Below, piece by piece: positions 2,378 through 17,968 of a stretch of DNA of 64,000 nucleotides (its first letter is position 1; each line of letters opens with the position of its first letter). The position numbers were made by a program, and so were the translations under genes. The stretch spans positions 14,848-78,847 of the IMG/VR virus record IMGVR_UViG_3300022200_000031; one strand, 5' to 3'. The DNA is from a virus. Below the pieces are notes generated by a model. The model made no database searches. It saw only the letters and a program-made list of their open reading frames with translations, and had not been told where the DNA came from.

Positions 2378-3035
2378 GCATGTTGATGTTGATTTAGGTT
2401 ATAACGATCTATCAGCTAAGACAACCGAACAGGGTAGGCGGTATGTAACGCCAGAGGGAAACAAGTATCCCTCCGTCACAACTGTTGTTTCAATCCTCAC
2501 CGAACACCATATCCGTGAATGGCGGAATCGTGTTGGTGAGGAAGAAGCTAACCGTATATCCAGACATGCAAGTGCCAGAGGCACAAAAGTTCATGATGTA
2601 CTTGAGAGGTATTTAAAAAATGATGAAGACTATTTGGATAAATGCAATCCGGTTGTTGTTTCTAATGTTAACTCTGTTGTACCTGTTCTCAATGAACATA
2701 TAGGGAAGGTGTATGCACAGGAATTTGCTTTATACTCTGATCATCTTGGCCTTGCTGGCCGCGTGGACTGCATTGCAGAATGGGATGGTCGGCTGGCAGT
2801 AATTGACTTCAAGACTGCCAAGAAACATAAGAAGAAGGAATGGATTGAAAACTACTTCATCCAGGAATCTGCTTATGCAATCATGTGGGAGGAACGAACG
2901 GGGGTACCTATCGTTGATCTCGTGACTGTGATTGCTGTTGATTATGATGAGCCCCAGGTGTTTATTGAACACAGGGACAATTGGGCTCCTAAATTAATTG
3001 AGACAATAAATGAATACAAACAACGAAAAGGCTAA
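2370..3035 (+). CDS. PD-(D/E)XK exonuclease (Cas4-like phage exonuclease)
   Basis: YPSVTTV, RGTKVH, AGRVDC, IDFKT and YFIQxxAY motifs; start trimmed to MFEHV. Confidence 0.85.
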   Translation: MFEHVDVDLGYNDLSAKTTEQGRRYVTPEGNKYPSVTTVVSILTEHHIREWRNRVGEEEANRISRHASARGTKVHDVLERYLKNDEDYLDKCNPVVVSNVNSVVPVLNEHIGKVYAQEFALYSDHLGLAGRVDCIAEWDGRLAVIDFKTAKKHKKKEWIENYFIQESAYAIMWEERTGVPIVDLVTVIAVDYDEPQVFIEHRDNWAPKLIETINEYKQRKG

Positions 3036-3174
3036 AGAAGCCTGGGATAATATAAACTCTTGCTGCCAGACATTATGTCATAAGGATCCAGTGATTGACT
3101 ATATTAAATATCTTGAACAACGAATTGAGGAGCTTGAAAATGGATCTACTGTCAGAACTGAACAAACAGGGTAA
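3010..3174 (+). CDS. Small hypothetical protein (54 aa)
   Basis: Translated by hand (MNTNNEKAKEAW...); fills the gap between the exonuclease and ClpP-like genes. Confidence 0.45.
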   Translation: MNTNNEKAKEAWDNINSCCQTLCHKDPVIDYIKYLEQRIEELENGSTVRTEQTG

Positions 3175-3718
3175 TAACTATTACGCCAATCGTCCTCTGG
3201 GCAACCTTCATGAGTTTTATCTTACTGGAGATATCAAAGAAGCGGAACACTACACAGAGTGGTTTGATCATATTCGCCGAGCACAACAAACAGATATTGT
3301 AAAAGTTTATATTAATTCATTCGGCGGAGATCTATTCACTGCAATCCAGTTTATGCGAGTAATGGGTGAATCTCAAGCAACAGTAATTTGTTCTGTTGAG
3401 GGAGCTTGTATGTCCGCAGCGACAATGATATTCTTATGTGCTGATGCATTTGAAATATCAGAACATTCTATGTTTATGTTCCATAATTATTCTGGTGGGG
3501 CATTTGGTAAAGGTGGGGAAATGATCGACCAATTAAATCATGAAAGAGAATGGTCGGAAAAACTATTAACTGGTGTTTATGAAGATTTCTTAACTAAAAA
3601 AGAAATTGATTCTATTCTAGATAATAAAGATATTTGGATGGATGGAGATGAAGTAGTTAATCGTTTAGAGAAAAAAGCGAAAAAAGTAAAAAGGAGTAAT
3701 AAAAATGGCGAAGGGTAA
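3140..3718 (+). CDS. ClpP-like (S14) protease
   Basis: YINSFGGD, GACMSAAT (catalytic Ser) and MFH (catalytic His); GAGGAG SD upstream. Confidence 0.85.
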   Translation: MDLLSELNKQGNNYYANRPLGNLHEFYLTGDIKEAEHYTEWFDHIRRAQQTDIVKVYINSFGGDLFTAIQFMRVMGESQATVICSVEGACMSAATMIFLCADAFEISEHSMFMFHNYSGGAFGKGGEMIDQLNHEREWSEKLLTGVYEDFLTKKEIDSILDNKDIWMDGDEVVNRLEKKAKKVKRSNKNGEG

Positions 3719-13564: not shown

Positions 13565-15226
13565 TTATGGGGCTGTCATCATACTTTCGTAAGAAGGACC
13601 TGGGGCAGCCTTCTTTGCACCCCCACTTCTTACATTGACAGATCCCGTAGAGCTGCTGTTACTCACATTGTTGGTTGTTGATGGAGCATTGATAATCACT
13701 GGAGCTGATTTACTCTTCATGTTGGCATTAGCATCCTGTGCTGCATCCAACTGAGCACCTGTTTGATTTGGAATAGGTTGAGCATCATCACTATTGAACC
13801 ATCCCTTAATAGTTTCCCAACCACTCTGAGGAACATTTGGTGCAGGAGAGGACATTCCTGTGTTGCTGGTATCGTTCATGTTGCTTTCAGAACCAGAACC
13901 ACCTTCTGACATATCTGGTGCCAGACCAGCCCACTTCAGACCCTTGCGAACAGAAACCGGCAGAGACATATAGATGTTCTCCCAAGAGAAAGTTTCATCC
14001 ATCCATGTCTGGAAATCATCCCACCAACCAAACAAGGCATCACCAAGTCCACCTGCCCAATCTTTGAGATCAGTCCACTGCTTCTTGAGATTCTCCCATG
14101 AGAATGTTTCAGCAAACCAATCAATTACACCATCCACTGTATCAAAGATACCTTGGATTAGGTCATTAATTAATTCCTCGAAGGAGAATGAATCAAGCCA
14201 CTTCTCTGCATCCTTGAAACCCAGCTTACCGAGAACCCAGGAGATCAGGCTCTTACCAAGATCCATGATGCCACCAACAAGGTTACCAACCAAGCCACCG
14301 AAGAATGCTCCGAGCTTAGAAATGAATCCACCTTCTTTATTCCAGGCAGCAATTGCACCCTGCACTGTGGCAATGATTACTGTGATAGGCCAAGCAATCT
14401 TACTTGCAAGTTTGCCAAAGAAACCAAACGCTTTTGAGAACCCAGCAAAGTACTTGCTGATGCTGGCAGTCATCTTTGACATCTTGCCAACGGTGCCCGT
14501 CATCTTCTTGAAGATGTAGATTGTAGGGCGGAAGAATCTATACAATGAGTTCATCCAACCCCTGAACATATTGATCCCCTTGAGGACCAGTTGACCAGCT
14601 TTTGATTTGCCAAGAGAAGAAAACATCTTACTGATGCTCGTTCCTAGAGACTTGAAACCACTCTTGACAAGAGAGAAAAAGTCCTTACCAAGACCTTTCA
14701 ATGCCTTGCCTAGTTCAATCACAAATGTCTTGAGGAAGATATATCCAAGTCTGAATGATCTGGTAATGTATCCAAGATACTTGTTAGTCTTCATGGATGC
14801 TTTGAGAATACGGCTACCCATCTTCTCCATTGTTGTAATAGATTTAAGAGAGAACGCTTTCCATCCCTTGTACCATCCTTTCAGACCACCCACAATAGTA
14901 CCAAGAGTACCAGCAAGCATCAGGCCCCAGCCAGCAATACCAAAGCCTTCTTCAGGTTTGGCATCCCCACCTTTGTCTTTTGGTTTGAGATCATGTAAAG
15001 CATCCAACATCTTCTCATTGAAGATCTGTTGTTCACGAGTCGCTTCGAGCTTAGCTAATGCATCACCAGTGACAGCAATGATAAGGTTTTCAAACTTCTC
15101 TTCGACCATATCATGAAACATATCAAGATACTCAACAGCCAGGTTGCTGTTGGCGCGCATGATCCCAAGATTCTCATTTGCAATCTCAAGTTCAAGTGTT
15201 ACATCTGCTAATGTTGCTGCTGCCAT
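13565..15226 (-). CDS. Tape measure / gp29-like baseplate hub protein
   Basis: Long amphipathic helical repeats rich in K/F/G/W; low-complexity C-terminus; follows gp26-gp51. Confidence 0.65.
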   Translation of the reverse strand: MAAATLADVTLELEIANENLGIMRANSNLAVEYLDMFHDMVEEKFENLIIAVTGDALAKLEATREQQIFNEKMLDALHDLKPKDKGGDAKPEEGFGIAGWGLMLAGTLGTIVGGLKGWYKGWKAFSLKSITTMEKMGSRILKASMKTNKYLGYITRSFRLGYIFLKTFVIELGKALKGLGKDFFSLVKSGFKSLGTSISKMFSSLGKSKAGQLVLKGINMFRGWMNSLYRFFRPTIYIFKKMTGTVGKMSKMTASISKYFAGFSKAFGFFGKLASKIAWPITVIIATVQGAIAAWNKEGGFISKLGAFFGGLVGNLVGGIMDLGKSLISWVLGKLGFKDAEKWLDSFSFEELINDLIQGIFDTVDGVIDWFAETFSWENLKKQWTDLKDWAGGLGDALFGWWDDFQTWMDETFSWENIYMSLPVSVRKGLKWAGLAPDMSEGGSGSESNMNDTSNTGMSSPAPNVPQSGWETIKGWFNSDDAQPIPNQTGAQLDAAQDANANMKSKSAPVIINAPSTTNNVSNSSSTGSVNVRSGGAKKAAPGPSYESMMTAP

Positions 15227-15418
15227 TTAGTGTCTCTGCTTTGCTGCCTTCATACGTTCGTTTTCTGCCTTAATATGTTCCACGAGCATGGAAACATATA
15301 TTTCCCTCTCCCATGGCATCATATTTTCCAATTCGGTTAAACTATACTGATGATTCTGCATCATCTGAAAGTTCACCTTGTAGTGGTTTACGAGGTTATC
15401 GTGGGAGAGGCCTAGGAG
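15227..15418 (-). CDS. gp51: Baseplate hub assembly protein gp51 (ATG at 15364, or -1 frameshift extension of gp26)
   Basis: NFQMMQNHQYSLTELENMMPWEREIYV motif. Confidence 0.8.
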   Translation of the reverse strand, partial: LLGLSHDNLVNHYKVNFQMMQNHQYSLTELENMMPWEREIYVSMLVEHIKAENERMKAAKQRH

Positions 15419-16140
15419 AAAAAATTCTGTAGACCCTCTACATGACGCTCGTTGTGATGACCACACTTGTCACAATCAAATACAATATCAGTATTGATTG
15501 AAGGAACTTCATTTGCAAATCCTGACAGAGCAGCAAACTGCTGTGCATTCATTGACTCAATGAAATCCAGTAACTCTTTCTTGGTATGATCCTTTGCATA
15601 CAAAGTTTCATCACCGTAAAAAATAACATCGATCGATGCAATAATGGTTTCAAACAACTGGTCTACTCTACTAGCCTCACTATTTGTGTCTCTAGTATGC
15701 TTCATAGTATCCATTGCATCTGCAACCGTTGGATACTTCATCTGAATAGACAGGTTATCACTAACCTTAACCAGCAAGTCCTTTTTACCTTGCATCTTCG
15801 GAGCTTCGATTGCAGCCAGATTAACGGTCACATCATTAAGCTCTTCACACTTCTCACACTTAAAGCGAATGTCAGTGGTTTCACCAACACTCTTTGATCT
15901 TAGCTGTAAGAAAATATACTCAAGATCAAATGGTGTGATATTCTTTGCATTGAGAGCACCATCAGTACAGCTACCAATTGTGTCAACCAATGCTTTTGTA
16001 ATATTAACTTCGTCCTGTGACTCCAATGCAATCATCAGGACCTTTTCTTCTTTAACCAAGTATGGTCTAAATTGTACCACCTCACCACTCGATGGTACAG
16101 TCATACTATACTTCGGTGATGCTAAATTAGGCAATGCCAT
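15412..16140 (-). CDS. gp26: Baseplate hub assembly protein gp26
   Basis: MALP...FRPYLVKEEKVL...DLEYIFLQLRSKSVGE; two CxxC pairs. Confidence 0.9.
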   Translation of the reverse strand: MALPNLASPKYSMTVPSSGEVVQFRPYLVKEEKVLMIALESQDEVNITKALVDTIGSCTDGALNAKNITPFDLEYIFLQLRSKSVGETTDIRFKCEKCEELNDVTVNLAAIEAPKMQGKKDLLVKVSDNLSIQMKYPTVADAMDTMKHTRDTNSEASRVDQLFETIIASIDVIFYGDETLYAKDHTKKELLDFIESMNAQQFAALSGFANEVPSINTDIVFDCDKCGHHNERHVEGLQNFFS

Positions 16141-16160: not shown

Positions 16161-16862
16161 TTAGAAGAACGCGGAAGCCAATCCTCCCATAACGCTGTTC
16201 TTCGCCATGTCAAACAAGCCTTCAACTAATCCAGCTTCTTCCCAATAATCATATGCAATAGTAACAGTTGCAGTAGCAACACTATTTTCCATACTATTAC
16301 CTAGTTGTACACTATTTAGTCCAATAGGATAAGCATTTCTGAGTTTGATGCTCTTCACTGGAACAAAGTTAACACCACCCATCTGCTGAATAGTAATGTC
16401 GGAGGTGTAGTTGTTCTTGAATCCAAACGTGTAGAAGTTATCGTCCTGCTTCTGTACAACAAGATCCATCCATGATTGCCAGTAGCTCCATGCATAGTAA
16501 TCGTTTGTTAGATTAAACGTCATTGTTACATCTTCATCAATGAACGCATTTGGTTTCTTAATACCACGAACAGATGTATAATGTTCCTGAGTGGTAATCT
16601 GGCGACCTGGAATGTTAACTGACTCACATAGCAGGAACATATCTCTAGGATCATTAATAAACGATTTAAGACTGAACGATCCACCAGAGATCAGCGAGCG
16701 AGCCGCATTACCTGCAATCGATGCAAAGTCTGTATTGATCAGTCCACCCAGACCACTATTACCTGGATGTGAAACATATATCGCAAATCTATTAGGGCGA
16801 GCTGCGCCACCTCTTCTTGTAATAGTCGATTTAAGTGTATCGACGTCCGCTGGCATTGTCAT
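16161..16862 (-). CDS. Tail-tube-fold baseplate protein (gp54-like)
   Basis: GGAARPNRF, LCESVNIPG and LRNAYPI motifs; synteny. Confidence 0.7.
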   Translation of the reverse strand: MTMPADVDTLKSTITRRGGAARPNRFAIYVSHPGNSGLGGLINTDFASIAGNAARSLISGGSFSLKSFINDPRDMFLLCESVNIPGRQITTQEHYTSVRGIKKPNAFIDEDVTMTFNLTNDYYAWSYWQSWMDLVVQKQDDNFYTFGFKNNYTSDITIQQMGGVNFVPVKSIKLRNAYPIGLNSVQLGNSMENSVATATVTIAYDYWEEAGLVEGLFDMAKNSVMGGLASAFF

Positions 16863-17446
16863 AATAGCATCTCTCTTGAATCTCTCCAGACCTTAGAAGC
16901 AGTTGCCTTCTGGAACTGGTGAACTGGTAAAAATGTTGCAATTTCCCAATCTGGTGGATCAATCTTCACGATCTTACTATCCACATGCGATGTTAGATAG
17001 CGATGATAGCATGGTTTAAAGTATCTCAACTTCCTCACTGATTTAATAATCTGGTAACGAGCACTGAAGCGAGAGGCCTCTGTGATGTTACTATCTGTTG
17101 TTCCCATCAGAGCATCAAGAAACTTGGCTCTGAGTTTCATTGGGAGGTAATGGAGATTGATACCATAAAACCCATTGGGTGCTTTATCGGCAAGAATAAT
17201 TAATGGAAAAGCATCGTAGTATGGTAGCTTCTCTCTTAATTTTGGATCATAGAAAAACATATACATATCCCCAAGACGAGGACGTGCAACCTTCTCTGTG
17301 GATGGATCTTTCAGCAACTTATGCCTATTGATGTCCTTCAGACTACGAAGTTTGTCTTGGAACCATTGGCGCGACTCCTTTGTGCGTGGAGTGATGCCAG
17401 CACGGAACGCCTCTGCTTCTAATGTTTTAAATAATGATTCTGCCAT
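16859..17446 (-). CDS. gp2: DNA end protector gp2
   Basis: MFFYDPK...LPYYDAFPL...GINLHYL. Confidence 0.9.
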   Translation of the reverse strand: MAESLFKTLEAEAFRAGITPRTKESRQWFQDKLRSLKDINRHKLLKDPSTEKVARPRLGDMYMFFYDPKLREKLPYYDAFPLIILADKAPNGFYGINLHYLPMKLRAKFLDALMGTTDSNITEASRFSARYQIIKSVRKLRYFKPCYHRYLTSHVDSKIVKIDPPDWEIATFLPVHQFQKATASKVWRDSREMLL

Positions 17447-17451
17447 AGATG

Positions 17452-17459
17452 TATTTATA
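17452..17459 (-). promoter_or_regulatory. T4 late promoter for the gp2 operon
   Basis: TATAAATA on the minus strand, just upstream of the gp2 ATG. Confidence 0.85.
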
Positions 17460-17517: not shown

Positions 17518-17961
17518 TTAGGCTAGCACCTTAATGTTAAGGGACTTCAATGTGTTCTCTGTCCATATCTGGAACTCCACATTATTGTCCATTGCAAACT
17601 CTCTTGCAGCGTGCCACTTTGATTGGTTCTTTGCATAGGTTAGAGACTCAGTGATGAATCGCTTGGTACGCTTTTTAGGAGTTTTTGGAGGCTTGGTCTC
17701 ACGGTCAGGTTTAATCTCAACGAGGTATCTTTTACCGTTGGCCAGTTTGAAGTAGATGTCGATGAAGTATCTATGACGCTTTTTATCAGTGGCACAGATG
17801 TATGGAATAACGATCTCCTCACTGTTCCACTCAATAACATCTGGATTATTCTCGAGCCATTTGAATACCTGGCGTTCCCATAATGATCTGTAAACCACCT
17901 TATCCGGATCGCCAACATACTTCTTCTTGTTTTTAACTTTATACTTTCCTTTGTAAGCCAT
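17518..17961 (-). CDS. gp4: Head completion nuclease gp4
   Basis: KYVGDP..VYRSLWE...HRYFID...LVEIKP...NQSKW. Confidence 0.92.
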   Translation of the reverse strand: MAYKGKYKVKNKKKYVGDPDKVVYRSLWERQVFKWLENNPDVIEWNSEEIVIPYICATDKKRHRYFIDIYFKLANGKRYLVEIKPDRETKPPKTPKKRTKRFITESLTYAKNQSKWHAAREFAMDNNVEFQIWTENTLKSLNIKVLA

Positions 17962-17968
17962 ATAAATA
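17961..17968 (+). promoter_or_regulatory. T4 late promoter for the baseplate operon
   Basis: TATAAATA upstream of gp48. Confidence 0.85.

What the first reader, a model, noticed from the sequence alone, without database searches (positions are those of the whole stretch)
15227..16140. Probable programmed -1 frameshift fusing gp26 to gp51 just upstream of the tape measure gene
Seen: gp26 ends AAT TTT TTC TCC TAG on the minus strand, giving a canonical X XXY YYZ heptamer T TTT TTC at 15418-15424. A -1 slip enters the gp51 frame directly (FF-LLGLSHDNLVNHYKVNFQMMQNH...), giving a ~304 aa fusion. The gp51-like sequence extends upstream of its first ATG (15364). Established: long-tailed phages such as lambda make tail assembly chaperones G and GT by -1 frameshift immediately before the tape measure gene. 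Inference: gp26/gp51 of these T4-like phages are the G/GT equivalent, although they are normally annotated as two independent genes.
Basis: partly seen in the sequence, partly recalled or inferred. Interest (0 to 1): 0.8.

Follow-up and report, generated by a model that had tools for sequence, protein, structure and literature searches.

The report
Frameshifted gp26/gp51 tail assembly chaperone
One tail-assembly gene of this uncultured marine T4-like phage very probably makes a 242-residue and a 304-residue protein because some ribosomes slip back one base on a conserved TTTTTTC run. The signal is real, but a 2022 paper already described this chaperone pair in T4-like phages, so it is a well-supported new example and not a new principle.

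Summary
On the minus strand a gp26-like gene (15412-16140, Pfam PF12322) ends ...AAT TTT TTC TCC TAG. The heptamer T_TTT_TTC lies at 15424-15418, and a -1 shift gives a 304-aa fusion.

The signal is conserved. In 82 of 82 related loci first examined, and in eight distant T4-superfamily phages (KVP40, phiM9, pf16, Ah1, S13, RSP15, Cr30, ACP17), the extension is in the -1 frame. T_TTT_TTN sits in phase, and protein similarity begins at the two Phe codons.

Phage T4 has no slippery run. It carries two PF12322 genes, gp26 (short) and gp51 (long, whose C-terminus matches this extension). The N-terminal half of the folded gp26-like protein best matches the three solved tail assembly chaperones. No conserved RNA structure was found nearby.

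It is not new. [quoted passage not shown] This scan has also flagged it on several hundred other genomes. No GenBank record examined annotates the shift. Ribosomal and transcriptional slippage cannot be told apart from sequence alone.

The parts
17452..17459 (-). TATAAATA, the T4-type late-promoter motif, just upstream of the gp2-like gene that heads this minus-strand gene block
   Evidence: 10 copies in the window against 3.8 expected. Promoter function is inferred only.
16859..17446 (-). gp2-like DNA end protector gene
   Evidence: phrog_429, E 1.3e-52.
16161..16862 (-). tail-tube-family gene (gp19/gp54-like) directly upstream of the chaperone gene
   Evidence: PF06841 E 1.1e-7; phrog_45 E 3.8e-32.
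15412..16140 (-). gp26-like gene, the short form of the chaperone (242 aa). It is an internal tandem repeat, and each half ends in a CxxC zinc-ribbon-like hairpin.
   Evidence: PF12322 E 1e-56; phrog_150 E 2.1e-59; model pLDDT 88; residues 1-95 match the solved chaperones 3fgx, 2ob9 and 3klu at Z 8.3, 6.9 and 6.5; the two halves align, hhalign E 2.6e-6.
15418..15424 (-). slippery heptamer T_TTT_TTC, the proposed -1 shift site
   Evidence: T_TTT_TTN is in phase in 91 loci. The first Phe codon is TTT in 68 of 68 unique junctions, and the preceding codon ends in T in 68 of 68.
15227..15424 (-). -1 frame extension (FF plus 63 residues and the TAA stop), the 'gp51' module. Joined to gp26 residues 1-241 it gives the 304-aa long form.
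   Evidence: phrog_634 E 1.1e-28, and phrog_150 profile positions 224-279; aligns to T4 gp51 residues 200-248; conserved from the FF onward, with a coding-type substitution pattern.
13565..15226 (-). 553-aa ORF, candidate tape measure protein. Its ATG abuts the stop of the extension (TAAATG).
   Evidence: Identity inferred from position and size, as in relatives. There is no HMM or BLAST homology to T4 gp29. The only lead is a language-model neighbour cluster carrying PF25671 at score 0.94.

Best explanation
The gp26-like gene is the tail assembly chaperone gene of this T4-like phage, and it makes two products. Most ribosomes stop at TAG (15412-15414) and release the 242-aa short form. A minority slip back one base on U_UUU_UUC, where both Phe tRNAs can re-pair with UUU. 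These ribosomes continue in the -1 frame through the 'gp51' ORF and release a 304-aa long form. By analogy with lambda gpG/gpGT, the shared part would coat the tape measure protein encoded by the next gene. The roughly 60-residue extension would recruit another tail or hub component. T4 gp51 is required for assembly but absent from the finished particle. Shown here: the anatomy, its conservation, the homology to T4 gp26 and gp51, and the chaperone-like fold. Inferred: that the shift happens, its efficiency, that it is ribosomal, the binding partners, and the tape measure identity of the downstream ORF.
For: (1) The frame and signal are conserved. All 82 related loci first examined have the extension in the -1 frame with an in-phase T_TTT_TTN. 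The same holds in KVP40, phiM9, pf16, Ah1, S13, RSP15, Cr30 and ACP17. (2) Synonymous sites are constrained. The first Phe codon is TTT in 68 of 68 unique junctions, against 31% TTC elsewhere in the gene. The preceding codon ends in T in 68 of 68. The second codon may be TTA or TTG (13 of 68), so the T run is better kept than the zero-frame residue. (3) The T run always starts at the X position, which fits tandem tRNA slippage. (4) The segment between the FF and the usual Met is conserved as protein. Pairwise codon-position differences are 0.35, 0.21 and 0.49. At least eight unique loci have no ATG, GTG or TTG in that frame before the Met, and two lack the Met altogether. In about 20 loci a -1 frame stop lies immediately 5' of the heptamer, so entry is confined to it. 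(5) T4 gp51 equals PF12322 (residues 1-201) plus this extension (residues 200-248). T4 gp26 equals PF12322 alone and encodes its FF as TTC TTT. T4 has two PF12322 copies, while KVP40, S-CAM1, Mosig and this record have one each. (6) The three best of 48,161 chains against residues 1-95 of the model are the three solved tail assembly chaperones (their identity from PMC9603447). (7) Gene order is tube-like gene, chaperone gene, then a large ORF.
Against: There are no expression data of any kind. No conserved downstream RNA structure was found (0 pairs; z -0.94), though lambda G/GT needs none. The invariant GG about 10 nt upstream could be an SD-like stimulator, but it is equally explained by a conserved Gly that T4 gp26 also has. 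In this window the -1 ORF has its own ATG (15364) with a weak SD-like AAGGTG (-4.1 kcal/mol), so a free 45-aa peptide may also be made. Several distant relatives have an ATG overlapping the gp26 stop, and Vibrio phage K369 has no heptamer at all. [quoted passage not shown] The fold Z scores (6.5-8.3) lie in a range where chance matches occur. The downstream ORF has no detectable tape measure homology.
Confidence: 0.7

Rival explanations
1. Transcriptional slippage. RNA polymerase inserts one extra U while copying the T6-T8 run. A fraction of mRNAs then encode the same 304-aa fusion in one frame, with no ribosomal event.
For: The conserved element is a homopolymer of 6, 7 or 8 T in 31, 14 and 23 of 68 unique junctions. 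The product would be identical. No RNA stimulator was found. The title of Vladimirov et al. [quoted passage not shown] I could not read the paper to learn whether that refers to this mechanism or to T4's two genes.
Against: The run here, and in 31 of 68 unique junctions, is only six T. From my own knowledge, efficient bacterial polymerase slippage is typically reported at runs of about nine. No junction has nine or more T. The run is phase-locked to X_XXY_YYZ in every locus, which polymerase slippage does not require. U-rich heptamers are described as -1 ribosomal signals in T7 gene 10 and in T4-like chaperone genes (PMC12846349).
Confidence: 0.2
2. No fusion is made. The small gp51 ORF is translated on its own, from its internal ATG or by termination-reinitiation at the gp26 stop, and acts as a separate peptide as current annotations assume.
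For: Every GenBank record examined annotates two genes or omits the small ORF. The window has an ATG at 15364 with a weak SD-like site. KVP40, phiM9, RSP15 and Cr30 have TAATG or TGATG at the gp26 stop. K369 has such an ATG and no heptamer.
Against: The roughly 20 residues upstream of the Met are conserved as protein from the FF onward. At least eight unique loci lack any start codon there, and two lack the Met. The synonymous constraint on the T run would have no explanation. In T4 the same module is covalently fused to a PF12322 domain.
Confidence: 0.07
3. Artefact. A homopolymer sequencing error splits a gene that is really in one frame.
For: Homopolymer runs are error-prone in sequencing.
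Against: The same -1 offset appears in 91 loci from isolates and independent metagenomes, with run lengths of 6, 7 and 8 that all preserve the frame relation. L003 has the identical junction.
Confidence: 0.01

Closest known systems
[quoted passage not shown] The paper is not held; its content is known only through citing papers PMC10885494 and PMC12846349.
   Same: The same gene family and the same idea. A short and a long chaperone form exist, some T4-like phages carry one short gene plus one fused long gene, and poly-T slip signals lie at the end of the 'TAC-N' genes of T4-like phages.
   Different: This is an uncultured marine phage that is not itself described. I could not check which phages, which signal or which mechanism the paper proposes.
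Phage T4 gp26 (208 aa) and gp51 (249 aa), listed as hub assembly chaperones (Leiman et al. 2010, PMC3004832)
   Same: Both carry PF12322. The C-terminus of gp51 (residues 200-248) is homologous to the -1 extension here. gp51 is required for assembly but absent from the particle.
   Different: T4 uses two diverged, divergently transcribed genes and has no slippery run (its FF is TTC TTT). This phage uses one gene plus a -1 shift. In a tree, T4-type gp26 and gp51 group together apart from all single-copy genes (support 94/96). That fits a duplication in the T4 lineage, but the branches are long and the root is only a midpoint.
Lambda gpG/gpGT and the conserved -1 frameshift of tail assembly genes (Xu, Hendrix and Duda 2004; Atkins et al. 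2016, PMC5009743)
   Same: Two overlapping ORFs lie just before the large tail-length gene. [quoted passage not shown]
   Different: There is no sequence homology. The heptamer is U_UUU_UUC rather than G_GGA_AAG. The short form is a tandem repeat with zinc-ribbon-like hairpins and is about twice the size of gpG. The extension is only about 63 residues. The partners are unknown.
HK97 gp13 (2OB9), B. subtilis YqbN (3KLU) and Rbstp2171 (3FGX), the solved tail assembly chaperones
   Same: They are the best three structural matches to residues 1-95 of the model: Z 6.9, 6.5 and 8.3, with 82-85 residues aligned.
   Different: Sequence identity is only 6-13% and rmsd is 3.6-4.4 A. The Z values are middling. 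The second repeat and the zinc-ribbon hairpins have no counterpart.

Membership tests
G/GT-type recoded tail assembly chaperone cassette of long-tailed phages | Second ORF overlaps the 3' end of the first in the -1 frame and needs no start codon of its own | tested here: met
   The -1 offset holds in all 82 related loci first examined. At least eight unique loci have no start codon before the conserved Met, and two lack the Met.
G/GT-type recoded tail assembly chaperone cassette of long-tailed phages | X_XXY_YYZ slippery heptamer in the zero frame within the overlap | tested here: met
   T_TTT_TTC at 15424-15418. T_TTT_TTN is in phase in 91 loci, with synonymous-site constraint.
G/GT-type recoded tail assembly chaperone cassette of long-tailed phages | Lies between the tail tube gene and the tape measure gene | tested here: inconclusive
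   The tube-family gene upstream is confirmed. The downstream 553-aa ORF has no tape measure homology, only position, size and a language-model lead.
G/GT-type recoded tail assembly chaperone cassette of long-tailed phages | Tail assembly chaperone fold | tested here: inconclusive
   The top three of 48,161 chains are the three solved chaperones, but Z is 6.5-8.3 and only residues 1-95 are covered. Foldseek found nothing.
G/GT-type recoded tail assembly chaperone cassette of long-tailed phages | Short and long proteins are both made, in a fixed ratio, and both are needed for tail assembly | not testable with these tools
   Needs proteomics and genetics.
Pfam PF12322 T4_baseplate (T4 gp26/gp51 family) | HMM match above the gathering score over the whole domain | tested here: met
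   192.5 bits against a cut-off of 24.5, profile positions 2-218 of 219. T4 gp26 and gp51 both match.
PHROG 634 (gp51 'baseplate hub assembly catalyst' module) | HMM match of the -1 ORF | tested here: met
   E 1.1e-28, profile positions 54-118. T4 gp51 residues 147-246 match positions 2-103.
Programmed transcriptional slippage sites | Long A or T homopolymer (about nine or more by my own knowledge) with no dependence on reading phase | tested here: not met
   The run is six T in the window and never more than eight in 68 unique junctions. It is phase-locked in every locus. Low-level slippage on a shorter run is not excluded.

The most novel reading that the evidence does not exclude
Translation of the downstream gene, the candidate tape measure, is coupled to ribosomes finishing the -1 extension. 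Tape measure output would then be metered by the frameshift and tied to the amount of the long chaperone form. The start of the next gene lies within 8 nt of the extension's stop in 64 of 67 unique loci, whereas the zero-frame gp26 stop lies about 190 nt upstream. However, the SD strength of that start (-2.9 kcal/mol) is ordinary for this phage, since 37% of its long ORFs are as weak or weaker. Tight gene packing alone would give the same picture.
Probability: 0.08. Interest if true: 0.55.

Novelty: new member of a known kind. Interest (0 to 1): 0.3.

Why it matters
It explains why 'gp51' of cyanophages and marine vibriophages is only about 20% of the length of T4 gp51 (Sullivan et al. 2010, PMC3037559). 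The missing 200 residues are gp26, joined on by the shift. It also removes the 'except T4' exception to the conserved tail-chaperone frameshift (Atkins et al. 2016, PMC5009743). Both points appear to have been made in 2022. The practical value is for annotation. None of the GenBank records examined, including 2024-2025 entries, annotates the shift, and some leave the small ORF uncalled. The mechanism, ribosome or polymerase, still appears open to experiment.

Tried and rejected
A conserved RNA stimulator was sought. RNAalifold on 32 diverse junctions (-25 to +95) predicted no pairs. The window's own downstream 95 nt fold no better than shuffles (z -0.94).

An upstream SD-like stimulator was considered. 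The invariant GG about 10 nt 5' of the run is a conserved Gly codon that T4 gp26 also has, so it cannot be attributed to recoding.

Tape measure homology of the 553-aa ORF was tested. BLASTP against T4 gp29 and against the Cr30 tape measure found nothing. PHROGs and Pfam at E up to 10 also found nothing, although PF25671 finds T4 gp29.

Foldseek against the PDB gave no match better than E 0.16 for the whole model.

Coupling of the tape measure to the frameshift was examined. The geometry fits, but the SD strength is unremarkable.

The literature was searched with ten queries. Combinations of gp26, gp51, frameshift, cyanophage and baseplate hub found nothing relevant. The 2022 paper surfaced only through the PRFect paper. 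It is not in the held library.

The 304-aa fusion was not folded, because a joined sequence may not be submitted to the structure tool.

Full report
**What is in the window**

Five genes run head to tail on the minus strand:
- a gp2-like DNA end protector (16859-17446, phrog_429);
- a tail-tube-family gene (16161-16862, PF06841 and phrog_45);
- a 242-aa gp26-like gene (15412-16140, PF12322 at 192 bits, phrog_150);
- a short ORF in the -1 frame (open from 15466 to 15227);
- a 553-aa ORF (13565-15226) whose ATG abuts the short ORF's stop.

The gp26-like gene ends AAT TTT TTC TCC TAG. This places T_TTT_TTC in X_XXY_YYZ phase at 15424-15418. A -1 shift there reads FF, then LLGLSHDNLVNHYK..., and gives a protein of 241 + 63 = 304 residues. 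The first ATG of the -1 ORF is at 15364, 20 codons downstream of the heptamer.

**Is it more than chance?**

A T6 run alone is not unusual. The window has 32 TTTTTTH sites against 38 expected. Conservation is what matters.

I fetched 80 IMG/VR contigs whose gp26 homologues are 38-82% identical to the window's. I added cyanophage S-CAM1 and Pelagibacter phage Mosig. In 82 of 82 loci the extension homologue lies in the -1 frame. The tblastn match begins at query residue 1, which is the FF. T_TTT_TTN sits in the gp26 zero frame in all of them. In about 20 loci the -1 frame carries a stop codon immediately 5' of the heptamer (TGA TTT TTT T), so the new frame can only be entered on the heptamer itself.

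The same arrangement is present in very distant members of the T4 superfamily:
- KVP40, Ah1, S13 and ACP17 have T_TTT_TTC;
- pf16, RSP15 and Cr30 have T_TTT_TTT;
- phiM9 has T_TTT_TTG.

**Constraint on synonymous sites**

I reduced the junctions to 68 unique sequences.
- The first Phe codon is TTT in 68 of 68, although TTC makes up 31% of Phe codons elsewhere in the same genes.
- The preceding codon ends in T in 68 of 68 (GAT, AGT, AAT, TCT, CGT). GAC, AAC and AGC make up 24-31% of their codon pairs elsewhere.
- The second codon can be TTA or TTG (13 of 68). The run of T is therefore better conserved than the zero-frame amino acid.
- The run always begins at the X position and is 6, 7 or 8 long (31, 14 and 23 junctions), never longer.

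**Is the region before the Met translated?**

The extension aligns from the FF onward, with a conserved L-S-H-[DEN]-x-L motif well upstream of the Met that annotators use as a start. Pairwise differences by codon position in that segment are 0.35, 0.21 and 0.49, the pattern expected of coding sequence. At least eight unique loci have no ATG, GTG or TTG in the -1 frame between the upstream stop and that Met. Two others (L027, L081) have Val in its place. Independent initiation therefore cannot be the conserved route.

In this window a weak SD-like AAGGTG precedes the ATG at 15364 (-4.1 kcal/mol). A free 45-aa peptide may therefore be made in addition.

**Relation to T4**

T4 genes 26 (208 aa) and 51 (249 aa) both match PF12322 (E 8.8e-64 and 3.9e-52). 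They are transcribed divergently, and gene 51 heads the block 51-27-28-29-48-54.

T4 gp51 residues 200-248 align to residues 2-52 of the window's extension. Both belong to phrog_634. In the phrog_150 profile the window's gp26 covers positions 5-232 and its -1 ORF covers 224-279. The two pieces are therefore collinear with T4 gp51, which covers 13-280.

T4 gp26 ends RGLKEFFELL*, and its FF is encoded TTC TTT, which is not slippery. The T4 relative Erwinia phage Cronus shows the same. T4 has two PF12322 copies. KVP40, S-CAM1, Mosig, K369 and this window's record have one each.

In a maximum-likelihood tree the T4-type gp26 and gp51 domains group together, apart from all single-copy genes (support 94/96). 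This fits a duplication in the T4 lineage. The gp51 branch is long and the root is only a midpoint, so I hold this loosely.

**Fold**

AlphaFold2 with a 29-sequence alignment gave pLDDT 88 and pTM 0.82. Foldseek against the PDB found nothing. An exhaustive alignment against 48,161 representative chains ranked three chains first:
- 3fgx at Z 8.3;
- 2ob9, the HK97 tail assembly chaperone, at Z 6.9;
- 3klu (YqbN) at Z 6.5.

All three matches cover residues 1-95. PMC9603447 names exactly these three as the solved tail assembly chaperones. The Z values are middling, so I count this as supportive and not as proof.

The protein is an internal tandem repeat (hhalign of its two halves gives E 2.6e-6). 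Each half ends in a CxxC hairpin.

**Stimulators and the downstream gene**

No conserved RNA structure flanks the site.

The 553-aa ORF has no detectable homology to T4 gp29 or to any tape measure family. A language-model neighbour cluster carrying PF25671 at score 0.94 is only a lead. Its role as a tape measure is inferred from position and from the 550-720 aa size of its counterparts.

The next gene starts within 8 nt of the extension's stop in 64 of 67 unique loci. Its SD strength is ordinary for this phage, so I do not claim translational coupling.

**Mechanism**

I think tandem -1 ribosomal slippage is the most likely mechanism (about 0.7). The phase is locked, six T suffice, and U-rich heptamers are cited as -1 signals (PMC12846349). 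RNA polymerase slippage on the run would give the same protein and cannot be excluded from sequence (about 0.2).

Vibrio phage K369 lacks the heptamer and has an ATG overlapping the gp26 stop. Some lineages may therefore express the module separately.

**What is already known**

- Sullivan et al. 2010 noted that cyanophage gp51 is about 20% of the T4 length, without explaining it.
- Leiman et al. 2010 list gp26 and gp51 as hub assembly chaperones and say gp51 is not in the particle.
- Atkins et al. 2016 state that G-T frameshifting is conserved in long-tailed phages 'except T4'.
- The PRFect paper cites Vladimirov, Gautam and Davidson 2022 for T4-like phages that carry one short chaperone gene and one long gene that is a fusion of the short part and the downstream part.
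- PMC12846349 cites the same paper for poly-T -1 signals in the 'TAC-N' genes of T4-like phages.

I could not read the 2022 paper itself. Even so, the core interpretation has evidently been published.

This scan has also flagged the same feature on several hundred other genomes. Some earlier notes cite the 2022 paper and others say that no report exists.

**Verdict**

This is a real, strongly conserved recoding signal that GenBank records still do not annotate. It is a new member of a known kind.

Noticed in passing
window 15412-16140 (-): The gp26-like protein is an internal tandem repeat. Each half is roughly strand-strand, three helices, then a CxxC hairpin (hhalign of the two halves E 2.6e-6). 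Only the first half was matched to the chaperone fold.
   Followed up: partly
L096 (Vibrio phage K369) 3561-3761: This relative has no slippery heptamer (TCA CTT TTC AAG TAA). Its gp51-like ORF lies in the -1 frame with an ATG overlapping the gp26 stop. The module may be made as a separate peptide here, or by an unusual shift.
   Followed up: partly
L085, L086, L092, L093 (KVP40, phiM9, RSP15, Cr30): These phages have both the T_TTT_TTN heptamer and a TAATG or TGATG start overlapping the gp26 stop. Fusion and free extension could therefore both be made.
   Followed up: no
window 17452-17459 (-) and 17961-17968 (+): The T4-type late-promoter motif TATAAATA is enriched in the window (10 copies against 3.8 expected). 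Two copies sit back to back ahead of the divergent gp2/tube/gp26 block and the gp48-like gene. The minus-strand copy ends only 5 nt before the gp2-like ATG.
   Followed up: partly
window 15226-15229 and 67 related loci: The gene after the extension starts within 8 nt of the extension's stop in 64 of 67 unique loci. In some loci one or two small ORFs (82-125 aa) lie between it and the large ORF.
   Followed up: partly
L088 (Aeromonas phage Ah1) 3678-3887; L091 (Cronobacter phage S13) 3693-3890; L001 (S-CAM1) 3001-3198: The gp51-like extension ORF is not annotated at all in these GenBank records. This probably explains the statement in Sullivan et al. 2010 that gp51 is missing from Aeh1.
   Followed up: partly
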